64,000 bases of DNA, from assembly GCA_050739575.1 (NCBI GenBank), contig JBOIBN010000002.1:2404-66403 (forward strand), written 5' to 3'. The position numbers and the translations under genes are program-made. The notes beneath the pieces are model-generated. The model did no database searches. It was not told the DNA's origin and saw only the letters and a program-made list of their open reading frames with translations. This document shows positions 18,919 to 36,929 of the stretch, piece by piece (positions within the stretch are counted from its first letter, which is position 1; each line of letters starts with the position of its first letter). The DNA comes from Gammaproteobacteria bacterium. Its GTDB lineage: Bacteria > Pseudomonadota > Gammaproteobacteria > JAKDMP01.

Positions 18919-19095
18919 GCACCTTATTTCATCAGTACAAGCATTTGATTTCGTATAGTTTTTGCGCAGAATAATTCCGGAGCTGATAAAACAGATGCCG
19001 GGCTTGTTGCCACCAGGAACTAAAAGCCGATTTCTTCAGGATTTTCTTCCTATAATGCGCGTTGATAATGATCCTGGAGCCGGCGGGAGGCGGGC

Positions 19096-19950
19096 ATGGC
19101 CTACGATTCGGAGTTCGTCGAATTCTGGAACACCATCCTGGTGCCAAAGTTTTTGCGCTTCCAGGACATTCTCGTACAGGGTCTGGGCAAGCACAGTCGG
19201 GTCATCTTCGCACGTGACGCCGTTGCGAAGCCGGGTGAGCGCGTGCTCGATGTCGGTTGTGGCTTCGGCGATACCGCGATCGATCTCGCGCGTCAGGTGG
19301 GTCCGGCGGGCTGCGTAGTCGGGATCGACTGCTGTCGGGCTTTTCTCGACATTTGTCGAGTCGATGCGGAGCAGGCGGTGCTCGGCAACATCGAGTGGGT
19401 GGAGAGCGACGCGGAAACGCATGAATTCGACGTGCCCTTCGATCTGTGGTTCTCGCGTTTCGGGACAATGTTTTTTTCGCTGCCCGTTGCCGCGCTGCGC
19501 CACCTGCGCACCCAGTTGAAGCCCGGCGGCCGCATGATGATGATCGTATGGCACAAGCGCGATCTCAACCTGTGGGCGGCGCTGCCGCGCGACGTGGTGC
19601 TGCGCTTCCTGCCCGAACCCGAGTCTCCAGATACCTGCGGACCCGGCCCCTTTTCGATGGCGAGCGAGGAAATCGTCACGCAACAGCTGCATGCCGCGGG
19701 CTATACGGACATTGCATTCATGCCGGTGGATGCGCCCATCATGGTCGGGCGCAACCTGGACGACGCGATTGATTTCCAGCTTGCGATCGGCCCGGCAGGA
19801 GAAATCCATCGGGAAGCCGGCAAACTGGCCGAACGCAAGTCGGACGAAATCCGCACGGCGCTCGAACAAGCGTTGGCGCCTTATCTCACGGACGAGGGCG
19901 TCGTGCTGCCATCCACTTCGTGGTGCATCACGGCGCGCAATCCTTCCTGA
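19096..19950 (+). CDS. Class I SAM-dependent methyltransferase
   Basis: VLDVGCGFGDTAIDLA motif I plus ...LKPGGRMMMIVW post-I/II motifs. Confidence 0.8.
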   Translation: MAYDSEFVEFWNTILVPKFLRFQDILVQGLGKHSRVIFARDAVAKPGERVLDVGCGFGDTAIDLARQVGPAGCVVGIDCCRAFLDICRVDAEQAVLGNIEWVESDAETHEFDVPFDLWFSRFGTMFFSLPVAALRHLRTQLKPGGRMMMIVWHKRDLNLWAALPRDVVLRFLPEPESPDTCGPGPFSMASEEIVTQQLHAAGYTDIAFMPVDAPIMVGRNLDDAIDFQLAIGPAGEIHREAGKLAERKSDEIRTALEQALAPYLTDEGVVLPSTSWCITARNPS

Positions 19951-19964
19951 GCACTCACGCGGTG

Positions 19965-20160
19965 CCGTCCAATGGTTCGAGCGGATCGCGTACCTCACGA
20001 TCCAGCTAATTGATGAAGGTGCTCGCGGGCGTCGCGCGCATGCGGCAGGCATCCTCGGAGAAGTCCTGACGGTCGGACGTGCCGAGCAGCCTGATGATGT
20101 AATCTCAATGGGGAAACTGCATGACCGGACTCGCGGCCGAAACCCGCGGTCCGGGCGGAT
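19965..20160 (-). pseudogene. prfC: Decayed internal fragment of prfC (~190 bp, ~80% identical to prfC 11975..12050 and 12130..12235, with an ~85-bp internal deletion)
   Basis: Direct nucleotide comparison: cgagcggatcgcgtacctcacgatccag...gcgcgcatgcggcaggc and ...tcggagaagtcctgacggtcgg...gggaaactgcatgaccggactcgcggccga match the intact prfC. Start and stop are missing and frames are broken. Confidence 0.6.
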
Positions 20161-20221
20161 CCCGGAACCTGCGGAATTTTAACTTGTCTTATCAAATGTA
20201 TACACGTACAAGGAGATTAAC

Positions 20222-20665
20222 ATGAACAAACATATGCTTTTATTCCAGGCTTTGCTGTTGGCCGTTCCTGTCGTTGCCCTGGCGGCTGGTCAGACTGGTG
20301 CACCGCGTATAGTCACAAGTTCGGCGGCTGTCAAAGGAGGTGAGCCAGTCAAGCTTCCCGTACCTGCCTTCAGCAAGGTCGACACCAACAAAGACAATCA
20401 AATCGAATGGAAAGAGGCTCAGGCAGTAGGCGTACCCAAGTCGTTATTCGAACGTTTCGACTATCGTCACGATGGCAAGCTGACGTTAACCGAATGGAAA
20501 ATGGTCGAGGTTGCCATGATTCATACGCAATCGTTGCCCGCGACCAATACATCGTTGCCGCCGGTACCCGCCAGCATTGTAAAAAAGGTCATCCAGAATC
20601 AGCAGGCGCCACACCATGGCACGGCGGCCGGCACTACTGCCGCCCCGCAACCGTCCAGCGGCTGA
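20222..20665 (+). CDS. Secreted EF-hand calcium-binding protein
   Basis: Signal peptide, then two canonical 12-residue EF loops (DTNKDNQIEWKE, DYRHDGKLTLTE). Sits in a local AT-rich patch with an AAGGAG RBS. Confidence 0.6.
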   Translation: MNKHMLLFQALLLAVPVVALAAGQTGAPRIVTSSAAVKGGEPVKLPVPAFSKVDTNKDNQIEWKEAQAVGVPKSLFERFDYRHDGKLTLTEWKMVEVAMIHTQSLPATNTSLPPVPASIVKKVIQNQQAPHHGTAAGTTAAPQPSSG

Positions 20666-20740
20666 TTCCAACAAGATTCGGCCCGCAGGCAGGGCGAGGG
20701 AAGGGTCAGGACCGGGAGTTTCAGCCGAAGGACGGTCTAG

Positions 20741-21553
20741 TCAGTCCTCCGGGACGTAGGTCTTGATTATGTAGCCGCCGGATTTTTCGTCGTACTCCAT
20801 CGTCAGGAGTCCCTTATCCTGCGCTTCTTCCAGCAGCTCGCTAAAGCTGTTGAAACCATGATAGCTTTCGTTGAAACCGGGCTTCCGGCGCTTGATCGCC
20901 TGCTTGACCATCGAGCCCCAGACGCGGTCTTCCACGCCGCGTTCCTTGAACAGATCTTCGATGGTTTCGAGCACCAGATCCAGCGCTTCCTGGCGCTTGT
21001 CGTCCGCACGTTTGGGCGCGGTCACCTTTTCCGCGGCCTTGGTTGCGGATTTGCGTCGGCGCCGGCGAGGCTTCTCATCCTCGCGCACCAGATCGTCATA
21101 GAAGATGAACTCGTCGCAGTTCGCGACCAGCAAGTCCGAACTGGAGTTTTTGACGCCGCTGCCGATAACGAGTTTGTTGTTCTCGCGCAGCTTGCTCACC
21201 AGCGGCGAAAAGTCCGAGTCGCCACTGACGATCACGAAGGTGTCCACGTGTGGCTTGGTGTAACAAAGATCGAGCGCGTCCACGACCATGCGGATGTCGG
21301 CGGAGTTCTTGCCCGACATGCTCACGTGGGGAATCTCGATCAGCTCGAAGGAGGCCTCGTGCATCGCCGGCTTGAACTCCTTGTAGCGCTCCCAGTCGCA
21401 ATACGCTTTCTTGACGACGACGTTGCCCTTGAGCAGCAGGCGCTCCAGAACCTTGCGGATGTCGAAGGCGGAGAACTTGGCGTCGCGCACCCCGAGCGCG
21501 ACGTTCTCGAAGTCGCAGAATACTGCGAGACTGCGGGTAGTGGATTCGATCAT
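20741..21553 (-). CDS. NYN (LabA-like PIN-fold) domain protein with C-terminal OST-HTH/LOTUS domain
   Basis: LAVFCDFENV...VVKKAYCDW...FVIVSGDSDFSPLVSKLRENNKLVIGSG NYN core; C-terminal helical OST-HTH-like region. AGGAG RBS 7 nt upstream. Confidence 0.8.
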   Translation of the reverse strand: MIESTTRSLAVFCDFENVALGVRDAKFSAFDIRKVLERLLLKGNVVVKKAYCDWERYKEFKPAMHEASFELIEIPHVSMSGKNSADIRMVVDALDLCYTKPHVDTFVIVSGDSDFSPLVSKLRENNKLVIGSGVKNSSSDLLVANCDEFIFYDDLVREDEKPRRRRRKSATKAAEKVTAPKRADDKRQEALDLVLETIEDLFKERGVEDRVWGSMVKQAIKRRKPGFNESYHGFNSFSELLEEAQDKGLLTMEYDEKSGGYIIKTYVPED

Positions 21554-21622
21554 ATATGCTCCTGCGCCAAAGCGCGGGTAAGTTGAATAAAGCTTAAATC
21601 AATAACACTTCGATGGTGCGCA

Positions 21623-23944
21623 TCAACGAAATAGGTGGACCTGAACGGCGACAAACGCCTGGCGTATCTCGGGCACCGAGCCGAGCATGCGCTTGGCGTC
21701 GTTGGTGCCGCCATAGCGGATGCGCAGGAAATCGGGGAGTTTGTTCGGCGCCAGTTCGTCGATGCCATGCGTTTGGTAGGCTTCGAGCACATAGTCGAGA
21801 AACGAGCGCATTTCCCTTTCGTAACCGCCAAGGCCGGTGGCTCGGGCCGCTTTGACGCGGTCGGCCCGCGCGAGTGGCGCCAGCTTGAAGCGCACGTAGG
21901 CCAACACGTCGAAGATGTCGCTGTGGGGCGCGTCGATCAGGCGCCGCATGTCTTCCAACCGTTCGGCGTCGTAGCCTATCTCAGCAAGCCGTTGTATGAA
22001 GGCTATGCGGCGCTCGGGGTCGCTCCATACGGCGCGCAGTTCATCCTCGGAGGTCACCAGCGTGCCAAGGTCGCCGAACAGTTGCGCCATGAATTCCTGC
22101 GCAGTAATGAGTTGGCCGTCGTGCGACCAGTAGCTCGTGGCTGCGATATAGCGGATCTGTCGCTCCTTGCCGTCGGCCAGCTTGACGACAATCTTCTCGG
22201 GGAGCGGCGTCTGGTCTTCTTCGATGCCATGCGCTAAACTCGTTGGCTCGGTTGAGGGTTTGCGCGGCCCACGCGACTCATCCGGCGGTAGCGGCTCGCC
22301 ATCCCACTCCGGGTCACTGAAATGCTCGTAGGCGTGCACGAAATCGTAGATGGTGAAGAAGTGCTTGCCGTCAAACACCCGCGTGCCCCGGCCGATGATC
22401 TGCTTGAACTCGATCATGGACTTGATCGGGCGCATCAGCACGATATTGCGGATGTTGAGCGCGTCCACGCCGGTGGACAGCTTTTGCGAGGTGGTGAGGA
22501 TGGTCGGCAGCGTCTTTTCGTTGTCCTGAAACTCGCGCAAGTGCTGTTCGCCCAGCTTGCCGTCATCGGCGGTCACCCGCTCGCAGTAATGCGGGTCCGG
22601 GTTGATCTTGATCTGGTTGATGAAGTTGCGCACTCGCGCTGCATGGTCCTGGGTCGCGCAGAACACCAGCGTTTTCTGGCGCTGATCTATCTGGTCCATG
22701 AACTCCTGCACGCGGCTTTGCTCGCGTTCGTCAATGATGAGCTTGGTGTTGAAGTCGGCCTCGCTGTACTCGCGTTCCGGGTCTATTTCCCCGCTCACGA
22801 CTTCGTCGCCGTCGCTGTATTTGTAGGTATCGAGCGTGCTCGCCATCTGCCGCAGCTTGAACGGCGTCAGGAAGCCGTCGCCGATGCCTTCCTTCAATGC
22901 GTAGGTGTAAACGGGCTCACCGAAATAGGCATAGGTATCGGCGTTGGCGTCGCGCTTGGGCGTAGCGGTCATGCCGAGCTGCACTGCGGGCGAGAAATGT
23001 TCCAGGATGCCGCGCCAGGCGCTTTCGTCCTTCGCGCCGCCGCGGTGGCATTCGTCTATCACGATGAAGTCGAAGAAATCCGGTGGGTAACCTTCGAAGG
23101 TGAACTGCGGTTCTCCGCTTGCATCGGAGCCGGTCATGAAGGTCTGAAAGATGGTGAAGAACACGCTCGCGTTGGTGGGGATGCGGCCCTGCTTGCGAAT
23201 CTCGTCCGGGCTGATGCGGCAAAGCGCATCGCTCGGAAAAGCGCTGAAGGTGTTGTAGGCCTGATCGGCCAGGATGTTGCGGTCGGCCAGAAACAGGATG
23301 CGCGGGCGACGCGTCGGCTGGCGCGACAGGTTCCACTGCGCATGGAACAGCTTCCAGGCAATCTGGAAGGCGATGGAGGTTTTGCCCGTGCCGGTGGCCA
23401 GCGTCAACAGGATGCGGTCTTCGCCCTGGGCGATGGCTTCCAGCACCGCGGTGATCGCGTTGTGTATGTAGTAGCGCGGCTGCCACTTGCCGCCGTCGGT
23501 TTCGAAAGGCACCGCGCCGAATCGGTCGCGCCAGTCGTTGCCTTTTGGAAAGCAGCGGTCCCAAAGCTCTTGCGGCGTAGGGAAGGGCAGGGCATGATCG
23601 CCTTCGACACCGGACTGCATGTCGATGCCATACCAGCGCAGTCCGTTAGTCGAATAAGCGAAGCGAGCTTGCAGGCGGCTGGCGTAGTCCTTGGCTTGGC
23701 CAACACCGTCGGTATAGCCAAGACCCGCGCGCTTGGCTTCGATTACAGCGAGCTTGCGGTCGCGATAACTCAGCACATAGTCTGCCGACAGCGGATTCAC
23801 CCGCCCGCCGCCGGTAATCCGGCCGGGACAGATCATCTCGCGGCGAATCCGCGAGCCTTCCACCACGCCCCAGCCGGCCTCGCGGAGCACGGGGTCTATG
23901 CGGTTGGCACGGGTATCCGCTTCGGTTTCAGTCATCGCCGGCAT
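21623..23944 (-). CDS. hsdR: Type I restriction enzyme R subunit (HsdR, EcoAI/EcoEI-like short form)
   Basis: N-terminal HsdR_N nuclease region (ADYVLSYRDRKLAVIEAKR), SF2 helicase motifs (LATGTGKT, DECHR, MTATPKR, QIIGRGTR), and an EcoEI_R_C-like tail. Start set at MPAMTETEA. Confidence 0.85.
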   Translation of the reverse strand: MPAMTETEADTRANRIDPVLREAGWGVVEGSRIRREMICPGRITGGGRVNPLSADYVLSYRDRKLAVIEAKRAGLGYTDGVGQAKDYASRLQARFAYSTNGLRWYGIDMQSGVEGDHALPFPTPQELWDRCFPKGNDWRDRFGAVPFETDGGKWQPRYYIHNAITAVLEAIAQGEDRILLTLATGTGKTSIAFQIAWKLFHAQWNLSRQPTRRPRILFLADRNILADQAYNTFSAFPSDALCRISPDEIRKQGRIPTNASVFFTIFQTFMTGSDASGEPQFTFEGYPPDFFDFIVIDECHRGGAKDESAWRGILEHFSPAVQLGMTATPKRDANADTYAYFGEPVYTYALKEGIGDGFLTPFKLRQMASTLDTYKYSDGDEVVSGEIDPEREYSEADFNTKLIIDEREQSRVQEFMDQIDQRQKTLVFCATQDHAARVRNFINQIKINPDPHYCERVTADDGKLGEQHLREFQDNEKTLPTILTTSQKLSTGVDALNIRNIVLMRPIKSMIEFKQIIGRGTRVFDGKHFFTIYDFVHAYEHFSDPEWDGEPLPPDESRGPRKPSTEPTSLAHGIEEDQTPLPEKIVVKLADGKERQIRYIAATSYWSHDGQLITAQEFMAQLFGDLGTLVTSEDELRAVWSDPERRIAFIQRLAEIGYDAERLEDMRRLIDAPHSDIFDVLAYVRFKLAPLARADRVKAARATGLGGYEREMRSFLDYVLEAYQTHGIDELAPNKLPDFLRIRYGGTNDAKRMLGSVPEIRQAFVAVQVHLFR

Positions 23945-24389
23945 AACGTGCTGTGGCTTCCTGCACCGTCCCGTGGTGCCAGGGGTTGAGCAGCGCAACG
24001 CCGGTTGCTTCGAAATCGGCCGTATTGCGTGTGACCACGGTCATGCCATGGACCAGCGCGGTTGCGGCAATCAGGGCATCCCGGTCAGGACGTGGGTCGG
24101 GCACGTGCAACCCGGCGCAACGCCGCGCCACGGCCTCGTCCACCGGCAGCACCCGTCCATCGAATTCCGAAACCACCTGCTCGTCCAACCATTGACGTAG
24201 CTGCATCCCTTGCTTGGCATCGCGGCGCTCCATGCGCAGTACGCCAATTTCCAGCTCCATCAAGGTCACTGCCGACATAAAGCAGTTGGCTGTATCCACC
24301 CGGGACTGCCAGGCGGCAACGCGAGGATCCGCCTTCCCATCAGCTACTTTGCGGACTTCGGAAACGACATTGGTGTCCAGCAGATACAT
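23928..24389 (-). CDS. vapC: VapC-family PIN-domain toxin (ribonuclease)
   Basis: MYLLDTNVVSE... N-terminus with the PIN acidic quartet. Stop overlaps the hsdR start by ~17 nt. Confidence 0.8.
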   Translation of the reverse strand: MYLLDTNVVSEVRKVADGKADPRVAAWQSRVDTANCFMSAVTLMELEIGVLRMERRDAKQGMQLRQWLDEQVVSEFDGRVLPVDEAVARRCAGLHVPDPRPDRDALIAATALVHGMTVVTRNTADFEATGVALLNPWHHGTVQEATARYAGDD

Positions 24390-24403
24390 GCATCGCAACC
24401 GGA

Positions 24404-24658
24404 TCAGTCGAAATCGGGGATGCGAAGGTGGATATTCGCCTTTGGCGGATCGAAATCGATGTCTGCCATTCCGGGCATCGCCAGCGCTTCGGCCAGCGTG
24501 CGACGACCGCCGGTCAGGCGCTGGTACTCCGCGATGCTCAGCAGCACATGCGCGGGTTTGCCGCGATCGGTAATGATCACCGGCCCCTGCGCGGCGGCCC
24601 GCTTGGCCCGGCCGATGTCCTGATTCAGCTCCCGGCTGGATACCGTGGTGATGGTCAT
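24404..24658 (-). CDS. Phd/YefM-family antitoxin
   Basis: MTITTVSSRELNQDIGRAKRAAAQGPVIITDRGKPAHVLLSIAEYQRL; located 15 nt upstream of vapC. Confidence 0.75.
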   Translation of the reverse strand: MTITTVSSRELNQDIGRAKRAAAQGPVIITDRGKPAHVLLSIAEYQRLTGGRRTLAEALAMPGMADIDFDPPKANIHLRIPDFD

Positions 24659-24862
24659 GGGAACTTCCACTTGCGATGCAATATAGTTATGTTACTACAT
24701 TCATTTTGGCTGTGCGCCCGATTTGTACCAGTGGTCCGAAAAGGCCGTCTCTGCGGGGCTCGGCGGAGATCGGCTTCGGTTTCTTGTATGCGTCAGGTCA
24801 ACATCCAAGCCGGGTTTACCGTTCGCGAGACTGCCAGTAATCAGTGCGGCGGTGAAGGTGCG

Positions 24863-25078
24863 CTACCGGTACTTGGCAAACACGTCCTCAGCCGGGATAG
24901 ACTCAATTTCTCCTCGCTCATGGGCTTCGACGCGGGCATCTGCCTCTTGTGCCCACGCGGCATCAATTTCGGGGTTGGGAACGTCCAGACTCAGAAGAAT
25001 CTGCTCGGCAACCGCCGCTCGCTCGGATGCCTTGAGTTTTAGTGCCTGATTGATTACGGATGCGGTTGAGTCAGACAT
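24863..25078 (-). CDS. Putative addiction-module antitoxin component (Unstab_antitox-like), apparently orphan
   Basis: MSDSTASVINQALKLKASERAAVAEQILLSLDVPNPEIDAAWAQEADARVEAHERGEIESIPAEDVFAKYR. The ~190 bp downstream lacks an intact RelE/ParE-type partner. Confidence 0.55.
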   Translation of the reverse strand: MSDSTASVINQALKLKASERAAVAEQILLSLDVPNPEIDAAWAQEADARVEAHERGEIESIPAEDVFAKYR

Positions 25079-25151
25079 GAATATCACCTATATATCCAAC
25101 TATCAAGATCATAGCACGGTGGCCGCGGGGCGAACTCGGATTCCGTGCCAC

Positions 25152-26531
25152 TCAGGTCAGCTCACCGGCGAAGGCTTTTTGCAGGATGGATTGACGGAGG
25201 TCGGCGATGTCCGAGAGTTTCGTTTGATACCGGCTTTCTAGGTGACTTGATTCATTCCCAATCGCACTCAGTGTATTGCAAATCTCTTTTTGTCGATCCC
25301 GCGAAGGATGGCAGATATGGAATGCCTTTACCTCCGGGAAGTAAATAGTTTGATGCACCGAACCGCTTGCAAATTCGCGGATTTTATCCCCTTGGGCGAG
25401 CAAAAGAAACTTCAGAAAATCGGGTTCTAGATGATCACCGCATATCCAATTCACGAAATCCTGACTTGTTGCCATGTCGCGGCCCATTACTACGACATAA
25501 CCTACCGAGGCAGTGCGAGAAAGGCAGACGGTTCCCTTCGGCAGGATGCGAGCGCTGGAATTAGCGATACCTCGCTGATTCGTCTGCTCTCGGGTCGAGA
25601 AAATTTTGCCCCCATGATGATCGCCTGCATCGCGTATCCCGATCCATCCAATGTCGCCGCCCCAATATTCCGGATGCTTTCTGCTAGGAGTGTGTCCACT
25701 TTCAAGCCGTGCCATATCAGATAATGGCGACCAGACCCAGCCTGGCCGCGCCTCGACGTGTGGGCGGAGAACAGACAAGGAATAATTGCCTTCAATCGGA
25801 CGAGTTGTTGCGCCGCGTCCACCGGTTTGTGTTTGCGCTTTGGATCGCTTTGACTGGGCACGTTTTGTGGTGATCAACTGTACAAGAGGCGCTGTATCAG
25901 AAAGCCATTTACGAGAGTCGTTTGAGAAAACGTCACGAAGTGCGCTCAGAAAGAACCCCTGCGCGTCCGCCAGATTGGCCTCGGCATCGGCGCGGGCGCG
26001 GTCGAGGGCGGCGAAGATCTGATCGAGCACCGCAACAATCCGCTTTTGCTCCTCCAGTGGGGGGAGCGGGATGAATATGTTGCCAATGATTACCAAGGTC
26101 AGCGACGGATATTTGTGGTCTTGGATCAGGTCCTGCGCCTTTACAGTAGACAGGTAATAAAGCAGGTAGCGCGGTTCGGCCACATCTTGTCGCGCTGTTA
26201 TCGTAGCGAGATGACTTGAGACATATCCATCAACGGACATCTCGACTCGATGGTTGAGAAAAGTGGAAGCTCCGCTCTTCGGCATCAAGACAGTTCCGGC
26301 GGGGACCAGTCGGAGCTTGGAAATTCCATCGTCGTTGAGAAGATCGGAGGCTCCATCGATATTGCCGAACCTGACTCGACCAACGTCCGACGTGCGAATA
26401 AAAGGATATATACCGTTCTCGAAGAGCTCTTTTTTCTGAGGAGCTGAATTTCCTGCCCCAATATGCGCGGCATCTTTCAGCAAAACGGACTTCCATTCCC
26501 GTTGACTAGCGATGGCAGCGGTGCTGTTCAC
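25152..26531 (-). CDS. hsdS: Type I restriction-modification specificity subunit HsdS (two target-recognition domains)
   Basis: 459 aa with two TRDs separated by a central conserved helix. Strongly AT-shifted DNA relative to its surroundings. GTG start overlaps the hsdM stop (GTGA). Confidence 0.85.
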   Translation of the reverse strand: MNSTAAIASQREWKSVLLKDAAHIGAGNSAPQKKELFENGIYPFIRTSDVGRVRFGNIDGASDLLNDDGISKLRLVPAGTVLMPKSGASTFLNHRVEMSVDGYVSSHLATITARQDVAEPRYLLYYLSTVKAQDLIQDHKYPSLTLVIIGNIFIPLPPLEEQKRIVAVLDQIFAALDRARADAEANLADAQGFFLSALRDVFSNDSRKWLSDTAPLVQLITTKRAQSKRSKAQTQTGGRGATTRPIEGNYSLSVLRPHVEARPGWVWSPLSDMARLESGHTPSRKHPEYWGGDIGWIGIRDAGDHHGGKIFSTREQTNQRGIANSSARILPKGTVCLSRTASVGYVVVMGRDMATSQDFVNWICGDHLEPDFLKFLLLAQGDKIREFASGSVHQTIYFPEVKAFHICHPSRDRQKEICNTLSAIGNESSHLESRYQTKLSDIADLRQSILQKAFAGELT

Positions 26532-27888
26532 AACATATCCCGAATACCCTTAAGAATCTTCGCCGTCTCGGCATCGCGCGCCAGCATGTCCTTGATGATC
26601 TGCTCCGGTTCACGCGACGGCGTTGCCTCGGGGGCGTTGGGGTTTTTGACCGACAGGTTCCACGTCGTCTTGTCGATGTCGGCGGCCTGCACGGTCCAGC
26701 TTTGCGGGCTGTCGGCTTTCTTTGGTTGCAGCTTCACGAACTCGGCCAGGTCGTTGTCGTTGAGCGGGTTGGTTTTGCCCAGGCTGCGACCCGGATCGAG
26801 CTGGTAGTACCAGATCTTGCGCGTCTTCGATCCTTTCTCGAAGAACAGCACCACGGTCTTGACGCCCGCGCCCTGGAAGGTGCCGCCGGGGCAGTCGAGT
26901 ACGGTGTGCAGCTTGCAGGTGGTGAGCAGTTCCTTGCGCAGGGCGACGCTGGCGTTGTCGGTGTTGCTGAGGAAGGTGTTCTTGATGACCACGGCGCCAC
27001 GCCCGCCGGCCCTGAGCTTGCGCATGAAGTGCTGCAGAAACAGGTAGGCCGTCTCGCCGGACTTGATGGGGAAGTTGTGCTGCACCTCCTTGCGTTCGCC
27101 GCCGCCGAAGGGCGGATTGGCGAGAACAATGTCGTGGCGGCCGCGCTCGGCGATGTCTATGACGTTTTCGGTGAGCGTGTTGGTGTGGCGGATGGACGGC
27201 GCGTCGATGCCGTGCAGCACCATGTTCATCACGCCGATGACGTAAGCCAGGGATTTCTTTTCCTGGCCGTAGAAGGTGCGGCGCTGTAGCTGTTTCCACT
27301 GCGAGGCGGAAAGATCGCCGCGGCGCAGATATTCCCAGGCCTCGCAGAGAAACCCGGCGGAGCCGCAGGCGCCGTCGTAGATGGTCTCGCCGATTTGCGG
27401 GGCCGTGACTTTGACCATGGCGCGGATCAGCGGGCGCGGCGTGTAGTACTCGCCGCCATTGCGCCCGGCGTTGCCCATGCGCTTAATGCGGGTTTCGTAC
27501 AGGTCTGATTGATGACTTCGGAGAAGATTTCGCCGATCTTGTATTCGAGCGTATCCGCGTGCTCGGCGCTTTCGTGGAACTTCTTCAGGTAGGGGAACAG
27601 TTTGCCGTTGATGAACTCGATCAGATCTTCACCGGTCAGCGCGGCGTGGTGATCGAATTCGCCGTCCTTTTTGGGCGCTGCCCAGGTATGCCAGCGGTAG
27701 GGTATGTCGAGGATCGGCGTGTACTCGCGGCTTTCCAGTTGGGCGTTGTCCTCGCGCTCGGTTTCCAGATCGTCCAGGTACTTCAGAAACAGCAGCCACG
27801 AGGTCTGCTCAGCGTAATCGAGTTCCGAGGCGAGCCCCTCGTCGTTACGCATGACCTTGTCGATATTATTGAACGCGTTTTCAAACAT
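26528..27888 (-). pseudogene. hsdM: Type I RM N6-adenine methyltransferase HsdM, interrupted by a frameshift near 27430..27480
   Basis: ORF 27427..27888 is the HsdM_N domain (…IGEIFSEVINQT…). ORF 26528..27478 is the catalytic half (GGEYYTPRPLIRAMV, DGACGSAGFL, NPPFG). Both are needed for one protein but lie in different frames with a 52-nt overlap. Confidence 0.75.
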
Positions 27889-27971
27889 TTTGACGATTAC
27901 CTATCCACAACAACAGCGTTCGTTGGATCGAGTCTGTTGGAGGTTCGGTAGGCGGTCATTTCTTGTATCCT

Positions 27972-28006
27972 CCCATAAAGCGGCCCCGGCTTGAAACCGG
28001 GGCCGC
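27972..28006 (-). terminator. Rho-independent terminator of ssrA
   Basis: On the minus strand, GCGGCCCCGG-TTTCAAG-CCGGGGCCGC followed by TTTAT, immediately 3' of the tmRNA CCA end. Confidence 0.65.
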
Positions 28007-28010
28007 TGGT

Positions 28011-28631
28011 TGGTGGAGGCGGGGGGACAGCTGGTTCCATATCTTTCGATATGGGCCGGACTATTCCTTCACCTGTCGTGTCCCGACAGGGGAGGGCGTT
28101 TGTGGGCCTGCAGCCCACCCTAGTACTCCATGGAGCGTTGCTCTTCAGGAGCCTATGAGTCTCTAGCCGGCTTACTGGTTTCCCATTCACCGGACGGCGT
28201 TGGCATAGAACCCTTGCTCCTTAGCGTTCACCGTATGAGCCCTCTTTTCCAACGGGGATCGCTCCCCGTGGCGACCGTCTTCCAATCGAACCCCCGTCCG
28301 CGAGCCCTCCGCCGTCGGCTCTACATGCTTATCCCGGTCTATTTATCTTGTCGCGTGCTACCCGACGGGCAGGGAAAACACGTGACCAGTCCGACTTGGT
28401 TTTAGCGGCAGTAGTCCGGACCCCTGCCACCGCGATTCTGCGAGATGCGACCCCTGAGACGGACCCGAAGATCCTCCGGACGCGCAGACGCGGCTCCGGT
28501 CAAGGGCTGGCGGGGCTTAAGCCGCCAGTGCGTAGCTGTTGTTGTTCGCAGCTATTGCGTTTGCAGTCTGATTTACGAGGGGACTGCACCTCGGCATGCA
28601 CCTCGGGTTTCGCGACCCACGTCGAAACCTG
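28011..28631 (-). ncRNA. ssrA: tmRNA (ssrA), interrupted by an intron in the T-loop; mature length ~374 nt
   Basis: 5' end GGGGGCGACCAGGUUUCGACGUGGGUCGCGAAACCCGAGGUGCAUGCCGAGG... Tag reading frame ...GCAAACGCA...AACAACAACAGCUACGCACUGGCGGCUUAA (…NNNSYALAA*). T-arm GGACGGGGGUUCGAU | insertion | UCCCCCCGCCUCCACCA; the acceptor stem pairs with the 5' end. Confidence 0.85.
28028..28274 (-). other. Putative group I intron (IC3-like, ~247 nt) inside the ssrA T-loop
   Basis: The insert starts UGGAAGACGG and ends ...ACCAGCUG (omega G). The 5' exon ends in U. It contains UAUGCCAACGCCG (cf. the Azoarcus tRNA-Ile intron UAUGGCAACGCCG), GCUAGAGACUCA (R-like) and GAAGGAAUAGUCC (S-like) in canonical order. 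No ORF. Confidence 0.65.
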
Positions 28632-28644
28632 GTCGCCCCCATGG

Positions 28645-28730: not shown

Positions 28731-29171
28731 TCAGGCCGGCCAGTTGCCAGTCCGGATCATCTCCGCGAGTTCGCCGTAGCGTGCCGAAAGCTGGCGCGCG
28801 GCTTTCGAATCCAGCAATGCTTCTGCCGCCGCGTTCCAGTTGCGTGCGGCGAGCGCCGCGATGGTGTTGTGGAATCCGAGCAATTCCGCGATGCCCAGGT
28901 TATAGGCCGCATCCACGACGGCTGCCTGGCGGACGTTGTCGAGCGCGGCAAACCAGGGATATTGCATCAGCGTCGCGACGTAGCCGTCGGTGTCGGCGTG
29001 AAAGAGCGTTTCCAGCGCCGATCGTTGCAGGTTCTGGTCGAGACGGGTGCCGATGCCGATCGTCGGATGCCCTTCGACGGCGTAACCGGGCACGATGGCT
29101 TTGCCCGTCGCGTCGTCATAAACGTGGGCGACGTAGCCCTCGTGACTTTCGATCAGTTGGTAGATATCTAT
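28731..29171 (-). CDS. T4-type (GH24) lysozyme/endolysin lacking a canonical start codon (possible ATA start or pseudogene)
   Basis: Translation ...IDIYQLIESHEGYVAHVYDDATGKAIVPGYAVEGHPTIGIGTRL...AAVVDAAYNLG...RNWNAAAEALLDSKAARQ...MIRTGNW aligns with T4 lysozyme, including the catalytic Glu/Asp region. The frame opens directly after the bfr stop codon. Only ATA (GGAGGGAGG 5 nt upstream) is available before the first GTG at 29093, and that GTG would delete the catalytic residues. Confidence 0.55.
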   Translation of the reverse strand: MDIYQLIESHEGYVAHVYDDATGKAIVPGYAVEGHPTIGIGTRLDQNLQRSALETLFHADTDGYVATLMQYPWFAALDNVRQAAVVDAAYNLGIAELLGFHNTIAALAARNWNAAAEALLDSKAARQLSARYGELAEMIRTGNWPA

Positions 29172-36730: not shown

Positions 36731-36929
36731 GCGGCCCTCCGGGCGGATCGCAATAGTTATTGTATCGTCGAAAGCGCTCAGGTTAGAATAAGCCAATTAA
36801 TTCCACACACGCGCCGACACATGCGGCCGGGTGCCCCGCCTCCGATCCCTTCATGACTGATGATGAAGGATCAGAGAGCGGGGTTGTCGCATGGGACGCG
36901 TGGAGGCTCAACCCGGACGGAGATTGACT

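What the first reader, a model, noticed from the sequence alone, without database searches (positions are those of the whole stretch)
21623..27888. Type I RM locus with toxin-antitoxin genes nested between hsdS and hsdR (PrrC-like architecture with a VapC PIN RNase)
The minus-strand gene order is hsdM - hsdS - orphan antitoxin - Phd/YefM antitoxin - VapC toxin - hsdR. The vapC stop overlaps the hsdR start by ~17 nt, implying co-transcription or translational coupling. hsdS overlaps hsdM by 4 nt. The classical precedent for a gene embedded between hsdS and hsdR is the latent anticodon nuclease PrrC (and RloC), held in check by the RM complex. Here the embedded effector is a PIN-domain VapC, whose known relatives cleave tRNA or rRNA, together with its own antitoxin. 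This suggests a composite RM-plus-abortive-infection module. As far as I can judge, this has not been described for VapBC.
Basis: partly seen in the sequence, partly recalled or inferred. Interest (0 to 1): 0.75.

Follow-up and report, generated by a model that had tools for sequence, protein, structure and literature searches.

The report
Phd-VapC toxin-antitoxin inside decayed restriction operon
A common plasmid-type toxin-antitoxin pair (Phd-VapC) sits in the known cargo slot between the hsdS and hsdR genes of a type I restriction operon; this link is conserved in a small group of related bacteria, but here the restriction system is probably dead because its methylase gene is broken.

Summary
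The gene order and overlaps are real: hsdM, hsdS, orphan Unstab_antitox antitoxin, phd, vapC, hsdR, all on the minus strand. The vapC stop overlaps the hsdR start by 17 nt, or 8 nt from a second ATG.

The type IB (EcoAI-family) restriction-modification (RM) system is therefore most likely inactive in this genome.

Phd-VapC is a FitB-like module of a family that is abundant on plasmids. It carries its own conserved TGTAG-N8-CTACA inverted repeat, found in RM-embedded and free-standing copies alike.

- **Distant VapC relatives (53-71% identity):** only 1 of 80 lies next to hsdR.
- **The 153-aa VapC group:** eight of nine sampled lineages besides the window place vapC directly upstream of hsdR or an hsdR scrap. 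The RM genes have decayed at least four separate times around intact phd-vapC genes that are under purifying selection.
- **Related RM operons:** the same hsdS-hsdR slot holds other cargo (Fic/Doc, Zeta toxin, DUF4411, another PIN module and more).

Toxin-antitoxin (TA) cargo in this slot is already described (DarTG2, PrrC, PIN-like TA). This is a new member of a known kind. A PrrC-like dependence on the RM complex is not supported.

The parts
27518..27888 (-). hsdM 5' part (HsdM_N domain). The ORF continues out of frame to a stop at 27427.
   Evidence: Pfam HsdM_N E 7.5e-10. blastn homology to intact hsdM of L094, L100, L102 and L095 ends at 27518.
27509..27517 (-). Junction of the 88-nt internal deletion and frameshift in hsdM.
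   Evidence: Alignment to L094 hsdM. Gap of 24-38 residues against PDB 5ybb and 3ufb. The same roughly 97-nt segment is present in L095, L100 and L102.
26528..27508 (-). hsdM 3' part (N6_Mtase catalytic domain). The longest ORF starts at ATG 27478.
   Evidence: Pfam N6_Mtase E 1.7e-57. PADLOC MTase_I 365 bits.
25152..26531 (-). hsdS specificity subunit, two target-recognition domains, intact ORF. Overlaps the hsdM stop by 4 nt.
   Evidence: Pfam Methylase_S, 2 stretches. PADLOC Specificity_I 324 bits. Only the central conserved region matches relatives at DNA level.
24863..25078 (-). Orphan antitoxin gene (Unstab_antitox / TIGR02574) with no partner toxin.
   Evidence: Pfam E 4.9e-15. NCBIfam TIGR02574. 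The downstream stretch 24659-24862 has stops in all frames and no toxin remnant.
24682..24699 (-). Putative phd-vapC operator/promoter: TGTAG-N8-CTATA, one mismatch from the family consensus TGTAG-N8-CTACA.
   Evidence: The motif is conserved about 25-35 nt upstream of phd in RM-embedded and free-standing relatives. DNA homology to every relative begins at about 24699-24701.
24404..24658 (-). phd, a Phd/YefM-family antitoxin of 84 aa.
   Evidence: Pfam PhdYeFM_antitox E 4.3e-12. Paired with VapC homologues in 78 of 80 genome loci. dN/dS 0.11-0.29.
23928..24389 (-). vapC, a FitB-like PIN-domain toxin of 153 aa with a 15-aa C-terminal tail beyond the FitB core.
   Evidence: Pfam PIN E 3.7e-14. 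PDB FitB 2H1C/2H1O/2BSQ E 2e-19 over residues 1-138. D5, E47, D104 and D125 are invariant in 26 homologues. dN/dS 0.07-0.20.
21623..23944 (-). hsdR, a type IB (EcoAI/FtnUII family) restriction subunit with an intact ORF. The start overlaps the vapC 3' end by 17 nt, or 8 nt from the alternative ATG at 23935.
   Evidence: NF046051 776 bits, model 2-767 of 768. Pfam ResIII, EcoEI_R_C and Helicase_C. Junction alignment.

Best explanation
This is an autonomous, self-regulated type II toxin-antitoxin cassette. A Phd/YefM antitoxin neutralises a FitB-like VapC PIN ribonuclease.

**Origin (inferred from comparison).** An ancestor of a narrow, mostly Xanthomonadales/Lysobacterales-like group captured the cassette in the hsdS-hsdR slot of a type IB hsdM-hsdS-hsdR operon. 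That slot is a known insertion hot spot. The 3' end of vapC became fused to the hsdR translation start, so hsdR is probably read from the same transcript. The transcript could come from the TA promoter, from read-through from hsdM, or from both.

**Function (inferred by analogy with FitAB and Phd-type systems).** The Phd-VapC complex would repress its own promoter at the TGTAG-N8-CTACA inverted repeat. Loss of the cassette would free the stable toxin. The pair therefore persists as an addiction or stability element and travels with the RM genes. It may also give independent abortive-infection defence.

**State in this genome.** The RM part is most likely dead because hsdM has an 88-nt deletion and frameshift. 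HsdM is needed for both methylation and restriction. HsdS and HsdR still have intact ORFs. What remains functional is the TA pair plus an orphan antitoxin from a second, decayed TA module.

**Shown:** gene identities, the hsdM lesion, the conserved junction, repeated RM decay around intact TA genes, purifying selection on phd and vapC, the variable slot, and the conserved inverted repeat.

**Inferred:** operator function, co-transcription, and an addiction or defence role.
For: - **Domains:**
- **hsdM lesion:**
- **The TA pair is a unit:** a Phd gene sits next to the VapC homologue in 78 of 80 genome loci.
- **Same inverted repeat upstream of phd** in embedded and free copies.
- **Plasmid family:** 1408 plasmid records carry it. 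One is an E. coli IncF plasmid with no RM genes nearby.
- **Junction conserved in the 153-aa group:**
  - RM operon intact in L094, L095, L100/L101 and L102. L023 shows the vapC-hsdR junction on a short contig.
  - RM decayed in the window (hsdM), L083-087 (hsdR truncated), L088-093 (129-nt hsdR scrap) and L097-099 (only an hsdR start scrap). phd and vapC remain intact in all of them.
- **Selection:** dN/dS is 0.07-0.29 for vapC and phd, including lineages with decayed RM.
- **The slot is variable:** of 61 related type IB loci with both hsdS and hsdR, 27 have the two genes abutting and about 23 have inserts of at least 1 kb. Cargo includes PIN plus partner, DUF6932, SLFN/AlbA_2, RhuM-Fic/Doc, DUF3800, Zeta toxin, Fic and DUF4411. 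None carries this Phd-VapC.
- **Moves as a unit:** DNA homology to relatives covers only hsdM start to hsdR stop, in different flanking contexts.
- **Literature precedents:** PMC12255303, PMC5499597, PMC6265443, bioRxiv 10.1101/2024.01.29.577857.
Against: - The long-term conservation of an exact vapC/hsdR overlap, at VapC identities down to about 64-71%, suggests selection for the linkage itself. Simple hitch-hiking does not require that.
- No promoter or terminator was detectable by consensus scanning, so the transcript structure is unproven.
- No experiment shows toxicity, neutralisation or addiction.
- The pairwise dN/dS values average over the whole divergence time, not only the period after RM decay.
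- The hsdM deletion rests on a single MAG assembly.
- The related pneumococcal phd-doc pair in a type I locus did not behave as an addiction system when tested (PMC6265443).
Confidence: 0.55

Rival explanations
1. Layered defence. Phd-VapC is itself an anti-phage abortive-infection module. It would be triggered by phage-induced shut-off and antitoxin decay. It sits inside the RM operon so that the two defences are co-transferred and co-expressed, without any physical dependence on the RM complex.
For: - The hsdS-hsdR slot in relatives is filled with known or candidate defence and TA cargo.
- DarTG2 in the same slot gives phage defence (PMC12255303).
- Guilt-by-embedding has a high success rate (bioRxiv 10.1101/2024.01.29.577857).
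- The linkage is conserved in the 153-aa group.
Against: - No PADLOC model matches VapC or Phd.
- The family is mainly a plasmid and chromosomal TA with no RM link: 79 of 80 genome loci and 1408 plasmid records.
- There are no phage data.
- The RM partner is broken in this genome.
Confidence: 0.2
2. Expression controller. The auto-repressed TA promoter, together with translational coupling, sets the level and timing of HsdR synthesis. This would be analogous to C-proteins of type II RM systems, and the linkage would be selected for safe establishment of restriction.
For: - hsdR starts inside the vapC 3' end in the window and 5 of the other 6 relatives that retain the hsdR start. Relatives use either of two ATGs, and the overlap is kept in both cases.
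- A conserved inverted repeat lies upstream of phd.
- In cargo-free relatives hsdR abuts hsdS, so this family has no obvious separate hsdR promoter.
Against: - L095 has a 19-nt spacer instead of an overlap.
- The TA pair survives without hsdR in three lineages.
- An empty host would de-repress the TA promoter and make HsdR early, the opposite of what safe establishment needs.
- No transcript data exist.
Confidence: 0.1
3. PrrC-like guardian. VapC is held latent by, or senses, the type I RM complex. It would be unleashed when a phage anti-restriction protein inhibits the enzyme, and would then cleave tRNA or rRNA to abort infection.
For: - Same position as prrC, between hsdS and hsdR.
- Conserved tight junction with hsdR.
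- A 15-aa C-terminal tail beyond the FitB core is found throughout the 153-aa group.
Against: - VapC has a dedicated Phd antitoxin and lacks any ABC-ATPase or HEPN sensor domain.
- It stays intact and under purifying selection where hsdM or hsdR are destroyed, including this window.
- L003 (Luteimonas) has the tailed 153-aa VapC with no RM genes within 10 kb.
- VapC falls well below the cutoff for the tRNA-fMet VapC equivalog, 37.9 bits against 140.
Confidence: 0.07

Closest known systems
DarTG2 toxin-antitoxin embedded between hsdS and hsdR of a type I RM in enteropathogenic E. coli (RptR/RRDM island; PMC12255303)
   Same: A complete TA pair occupies the hsdS-hsdR slot of a type I operon in the same orientation. 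The authors interpret the slot as a recombination hot spot for defence cargo.
   Different: The toxin there is a DNA ADP-ribosyltransferase, not a PIN RNase. The island is controlled by a dedicated upstream repressor, RptR. Here there is no RptR, the TA carries its own operator-like repeat, vapC overlaps hsdR, and hsdM is broken.
PrrC / EcoprrI, and RloC (RM-linked anticodon nucleases)
   Same: The gene lies between hsdS and hsdR, and the predicted effector is an RNase.
   Different: From established knowledge, PrrC is a single ABC-ATPase plus anticodon-nuclease protein with no antitoxin. It is silenced by the RM complex and triggered by T4 Stp. VapC here is a bare PIN domain with a Phd antitoxin, and it outlives the RM genes.
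PIN-like TA modules transcriptionally coupled to type I RM subunits (Matelska, Steczkiewicz & Ginalski 2017, PMC5499597, section 17)
   Same: The same class of observation: PIN/VapC-type toxins in operons with HsdM, HsdS and HsdR.
   Different: That survey found such arrangements usually not conserved between close species. Here a specific phd-vapC-hsdR junction is conserved across a group of genera.
FitAB of Neisseria gonorrhoeae and plasmid Phd/YefM-VapC stability modules
   Same: FitB is the closest solved structure (E 2e-19). Homologues at 60-71% identity occur on 277 plasmid records, of 1408 with any match. The gene pair has an upstream inverted repeat.
   Different: FitA is a ribbon-helix-helix antitoxin, whereas the antitoxin here is Phd/YefM-type. 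The VapC here has a 15-aa C-terminal tail and is fused to the hsdR start.
Pneumococcal tvr (SpnIV) type I locus with phd-doc (tvrAT) between hsdM and hsdR (PMC6265443)
   Same: A Phd-family TA pair lies inside a type I RM locus.
   Different: The toxin is Doc, not VapC. The locus has a recombinase and shuffling hsdS fragments. TvrAT behaved as a regulator of shuffling rather than as an addiction system.

Membership tests
Type I restriction-modification system (type IB, EcoAI/FtnUII-like) | HsdR with a nuclease N-domain, an SF2 helicase motor and an EcoEI_R_C tail, full length | tested here: met
   NF046051 776 bits (cutoff 550), covering model positions 2-767 of 768. Pfam ResIII, Helicase_C and EcoEI_R_C.
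Type I restriction-modification system (type IB, EcoAI/FtnUII-like) | HsdS with two target-recognition domains | tested here: met
   Methylase_S, two stretches. PADLOC Specificity_I 324 bits.
Type I restriction-modification system (type IB, EcoAI/FtnUII-like) | Intact HsdM (HsdM_N plus N6_Mtase in one reading frame) | tested here: not met
   Two ORFs in different frames. An 88-nt deletion is seen against L094, L095, L100 and L102.
Type I restriction-modification system (type IB, EcoAI/FtnUII-like) | Methylation and restriction activity | not testable with these tools
   Needs a methylome or a restriction assay.
Type II toxin-antitoxin, VapBC class (Phd/YefM antitoxin with FitB-like PIN toxin) | PIN domain with conserved acidic active-site residues | tested here: met
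   PIN E 3.7e-14. D5, E47, D104 and D125 are invariant in 26 homologues. FitB match.
Type II toxin-antitoxin, VapBC class (Phd/YefM antitoxin with FitB-like PIN toxin) | Small antitoxin gene immediately upstream on the same strand, with the pairing conserved | tested here: met
   phd ends 14 nt before vapC. A Phd gene is adjacent in 78 of 80 homologous loci.
Type II toxin-antitoxin, VapBC class (Phd/YefM antitoxin with FitB-like PIN toxin) | Autoregulatory palindromic operator upstream of the antitoxin gene | tested here: inconclusive
   A conserved TGTAG-N8-CTACA inverted repeat is found across the family. Binding and repression were not tested. The consensus promoter scan found nothing.
Type II toxin-antitoxin, VapBC class (Phd/YefM antitoxin with FitB-like PIN toxin) | Toxin toxicity and neutralisation by the antitoxin | not testable with these tools
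   Needs expression experiments.
tRNA(fMet)-specific VapC (NCBIfam NF047863 equivalog) | Score above the curated cutoff | tested here: not met
   37.9 bits against a cutoff of 140. The RNA target is unknown.
PrrC/RloC RM-guardian anticodon nucleases | Gene located between hsdS and hsdR | tested here: met
   Gene order.
PrrC/RloC RM-guardian anticodon nucleases | ABC-ATPase N-domain fused to an anticodon-nuclease C-domain, with no separate antitoxin | tested here: not met
   Only a PIN domain. No PADLOC match. A dedicated Phd antitoxin is present.
PrrC/RloC RM-guardian anticodon nucleases | Latency that depends on the RM complex | tested here: not met
   Indirect test: phd-vapC stays intact and under purifying selection in four lineages with destroyed hsdM or hsdR. 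A direct test needs experiments.
Defence/TA cargo embedded in type I RM operons (guilt-by-embedding) | Cargo between hsd genes in a slot whose content varies among related RM operons | tested here: met
   27 of 61 related loci have hsdS abutting hsdR. About 23 carry inserts of at least 1 kb with diverse cargo.
Defence/TA cargo embedded in type I RM operons (guilt-by-embedding) | Anti-phage activity of the cargo | not testable with these tools
   Needs phage challenge.

The most novel reading that the evidence does not exclude
In the 153-aa VapC group the TA pair may have become a working part of the restriction operon rather than a passenger. Two routes are open:
- The Phd-VapC-repressed promoter and the vapC/hsdR translational overlap set HsdR dosage.
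- The tailed VapC senses loss or inhibition of the restriction complex.

Either would make it a PIN-based RM-coupled module that has been selected as a unit across genera.
Probability: 0.12. Interest if true: 0.6.

Novelty: new member of a known kind. Interest (0 to 1): 0.3.

Why it matters
- It adds a clear, group-wide example of Phd-VapC to the growing list of TA and defence cargo embedded between hsdS and hsdR.
- It shows how such composites age. The restriction genes decay repeatedly while the addictive TA pair persists.
- The intact relatives (L094, L095, L100, L102 types, including Pseudoxanthomonas-like genomes) offer a tractable cassette. It could test whether embedded TA pairs stabilise, regulate or back up a type I enzyme.
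- For annotating this genome, the practical point is that the RM system should be called a pseudogene-containing remnant.

Tried and rejected
- **Island at the tmRNA gene.** I asked whether the cassette is a genomic island integrated at the adjacent tmRNA gene. There is no second copy of the tmRNA 3' end in the window. The displaced 3' end is explained by a group I intron instead.
- **Remnant toxin after the orphan antitoxin.** All three frames of 24641-24900 contain stops.
- **Promoter and terminator scan of 21400-28300.** It found nothing on the minus strand above shuffled expectation, so it is uninformative.
- **PADLOC.** No model matches VapC, Phd or the orphan antitoxin.
- **Reciprocal search from HsdR in metagenome contigs.** None of the 80 loci kept, at 56-82% identity, carries this Phd-VapC. 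The embedded group is therefore narrow or poorly sampled in that collection.
- **The VapC tail as an RM-specific adaptation.** L003 has the 153-aa tailed form with no RM genes nearby.
- **Shared flanks.** blastn of relatives against the window shows homology only from the hsdM start to the hsdR stop.

Full report
**Observation**

- HMM searches identify hsdR at 21623-23944. It has ResIII, Helicase_C and EcoEI_R_C domains and matches NCBIfam EcoAI/FtnUII type IB at 776 bits against a cutoff of 550, full length.
- vapC is at 23928-24389 (PIN, E 3.7e-14) and phd at 24404-24658 (PhdYeFM_antitox).
- An Unstab_antitox/TIGR02574 antitoxin is at 24863-25078.
- hsdS is at 25152-26531 with two Methylase_S domains, followed by hsdM.
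- The vapC stop overlaps the hsdR start by 17 nt from ATG 23944, or 8 nt from a second ATG at 23935.
- hsdS overlaps the hsdM stop by 4 nt.
- The antitoxin at 24863-25078 is a true orphan. The roughly 200 nt after it have stops in every frame and no detectable toxin remnant.

hsdM is split into two ORFs in different frames, 27427-27888 and 26528-27478.
- Against solved HsdM structures the conceptual protein lacks 24-38 residues between the N-terminal and catalytic domains.
- Against the intact 483-aa hsdM of the closest relative, L094, the window lacks 88 nt. That is about 29 codons (ANRFRSGYSLRDALEIIDQLNFGSQQAKHEL) plus a frameshift.
- Three further intact relatives (L095, L100, L102) also carry the segment.
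- HsdM is required for both methylation and restriction in type I enzymes (established knowledge). The RM system is therefore most likely inactive here, although hsdS and hsdR remain intact ORFs.
- Caveat: only this one MAG assembly covers the lesion.

**What the TA pair is**

- VapC is closest to FitB of Neisseria among solved structures (E 2e-19, residues 1-138) and has a 15-residue C-terminal tail.
- The acidic PIN residues are invariant in homologues.
- It falls far below the cutoff for the tRNA-fMet VapC equivalog, so its target is unknown.
- The family is very large, with at least 8000 database hits, and is common on plasmids, with 1408 records. One is an E. coli IncF plasmid with no RM genes nearby.
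- In 80 genome loci with VapC homologues at 53-71% identity, a Phd gene is adjacent in 78. An HsdR gene is adjacent in only one, L023.
- A TGTAG-N8-CTACA inverted repeat lies about 25-35 nt upstream of phd across the family, in RM-embedded and free copies alike. In the window it reads TGTAG-N8-CTATA at 24682-24699.
- DNA homology between the window and every relative starts at about 24699-24701, just upstream of this repeat.
- These features mark phd-vapC as an autonomous, probably self-regulated module.

**Is the linkage conserved?**

Yes, within a narrow group. I sampled nine further lineages carrying the 153-aa (tailed) VapC at 67-85% identity.

| Lineage | State of the RM genes |
|---|---|
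| L094, L095, L100/L101, L102 | Full hsdM-hsdS-X-phd-vapC-hsdR |
| L023 | vapC-hsdR junction on a short contig |
| L083-087 | hsdS fragment kept, hsdR truncated after about 315 nt |
| L088-093 | Only a 129-nt hsdR scrap |
| L097-099 | Only the first hsdR codons, plus an hsdS fragment in L099 |
| L003 (Luteimonas) | No RM trace |

- At the junction, relatives use either or both of two ATGs, giving an 8- or 17-nt overlap. L095 has a 19-nt spacer.
- phd and vapC are intact everywhere. Their dN/dS against the window is 0.07-0.29, including in the lineages with decayed RM.
- Homology to the window covers only hsdM start to hsdR stop. The flanks differ, so the cassette moves or is retained as a unit.

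**The slot**

Among 80 metagenomic relatives of HsdR (56-82% identity), 61 have both hsdS and hsdR on the fragment.
- In 27 the two genes abut.
- About 23 have inserts of at least 1 kb.
- None contains this Phd-VapC.
- Pfam on representative cargo gives another PIN with a partner gene, DUF6932, SLFN/AlbA_2-HATPase, RhuM-Fic/Doc, Doc, DUF3800, Zeta toxin, Fic and DUF4411.
- Position X within the VapC group also varies. It holds Unstab_antitox here, a ribbon-helix-helix antitoxin in L094, a 135-143-aa protein in L100 and L102, and a reverse PIN pair in L095.
- The hsdS-hsdR junction of this RM family is therefore an insertion hot spot for TA-like and defence cargo.

**Comparison with what is known**

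- TA and defence genes embedded in type I RM operons are established. PrrC in EcoprrI is the classic case.
- DarTG2 lies between hsdS and hsdR in enteropathogenic E. coli, and that slot was described there as a likely recombination hot spot (PMC12255303).
- phd-doc lies in the pneumococcal tvr locus (PMC6265443).
- A systematic guilt-by-embedding survey exists (bioRxiv 10.1101/2024.01.29.577857).
- PIN-like TA modules presumably co-transcribed with type I subunits were reported in 2017 (PMC5499597, section 17).
- What is added here is a specific Phd-VapC(FitB-like)-hsdR junction conserved across genera, and a clear picture of RM decay around a persistent TA pair.

**Mechanism**

The best-supported reading (confidence about 0.55) is a captured, autonomous addiction-type TA. 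It travels with a type IB operon, and may stabilise it, with hsdR read from the same transcript. In this genome only the TA part is still functional.

Alternatives:
- Independent abortive-infection defence co-located for co-transfer, about 0.2.
- The TA promoter acting as an hsdR expression controller, about 0.1.
- A PrrC-like guardian, about 0.07.

The guardian model is weakened in three ways. A dedicated antitoxin is present. No sensor domain is present. The TA genes also persist after the RM genes are lost.

**Verdict**

This is a real and neatly organised locus, but a new member of a known kind. The RM component is a probable pseudogene-bearing remnant in this genome. Interest is modest (0.3). 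The residual novel reading, functional integration of VapBC with HsdR in this group, has a probability of about 0.12.

Noticed in passing
window 28001-28641 (-); insert about 28027-28283: The tmRNA gene just upstream of hsdM is an intron-form gene. The T-loop is interrupted after ...GGGGGTTCGAT by about 257 nt, then TCCCCCCGCCTCCACCA and a terminator hairpin follow. ARAGORN misses it, and Rfam tmRNA matches only up to the T-loop. The insert matches Rfam Intron_gpI full-length, but only at 25.3 bits (E 1.2e-4 in a narrow search, below the gathering score of 50). It has a P1 helix with a U.G pair at position -1, ends in G, and folds with z = -4.3. The site fits the main T-loop position 7 described for intron-form tmRNAs (PMC11915505).
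   Followed up: partly
window about 25220 and upstream, against L001 1-212: A second MAG (GCA_974167825.1, L001) is 99.8% identical to the window from 19000 to 25220. Upstream of that it diverges inside the hsdS 3' target-recognition domain, where HsdS identity is only 43%, and its contig ends there. This suggests strain-level swapping of hsdS specificity domains.
   Followed up: partly
window 20741-21553 (-): A NYN-domain plus OST-HTH/LOTUS protein of 270 aa lies 70 nt downstream of hsdR on the same strand. It has a weak PADLOC match to a LabA-like NYN nuclease (E 3e-6). It is absent downstream of hsdR in the relatives' cassettes, so it is probably not part of the unit.
   Followed up: partly
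L083 3897-5279 and 10446-10901; also L084-L087: In the P0011 lineage the truncated hsdR start reads on into a 151-aa ORF with a weak SDH_alpha hit, and a serine dehydratase gene lies upstream of the island. The decayed RM/TA island may therefore sit inside or beside a disrupted serine dehydratase gene.
   Followed up: no
L100 7095-7526, L102 6905-7312, L097 6366-6797, L099 1648-2079: A 135-143-aa protein with no Pfam hit recurs between hsdS and phd in several relatives of the cassette. It is absent from the window. Its function is unknown and it could be another cargo gene.
   Followed up: no
window 28731-29093 (-): A short 120-aa ORF with a weak Phage_lysozyme match (E 6e-5) lies just upstream of the tmRNA 5' end. 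It may be a lysozyme fragment.
   Followed up: no
window 36786-36912 (+): Rfam t44 RNA matches above the gathering score (68 bits). It is unrelated to this finding.
   Followed up: no
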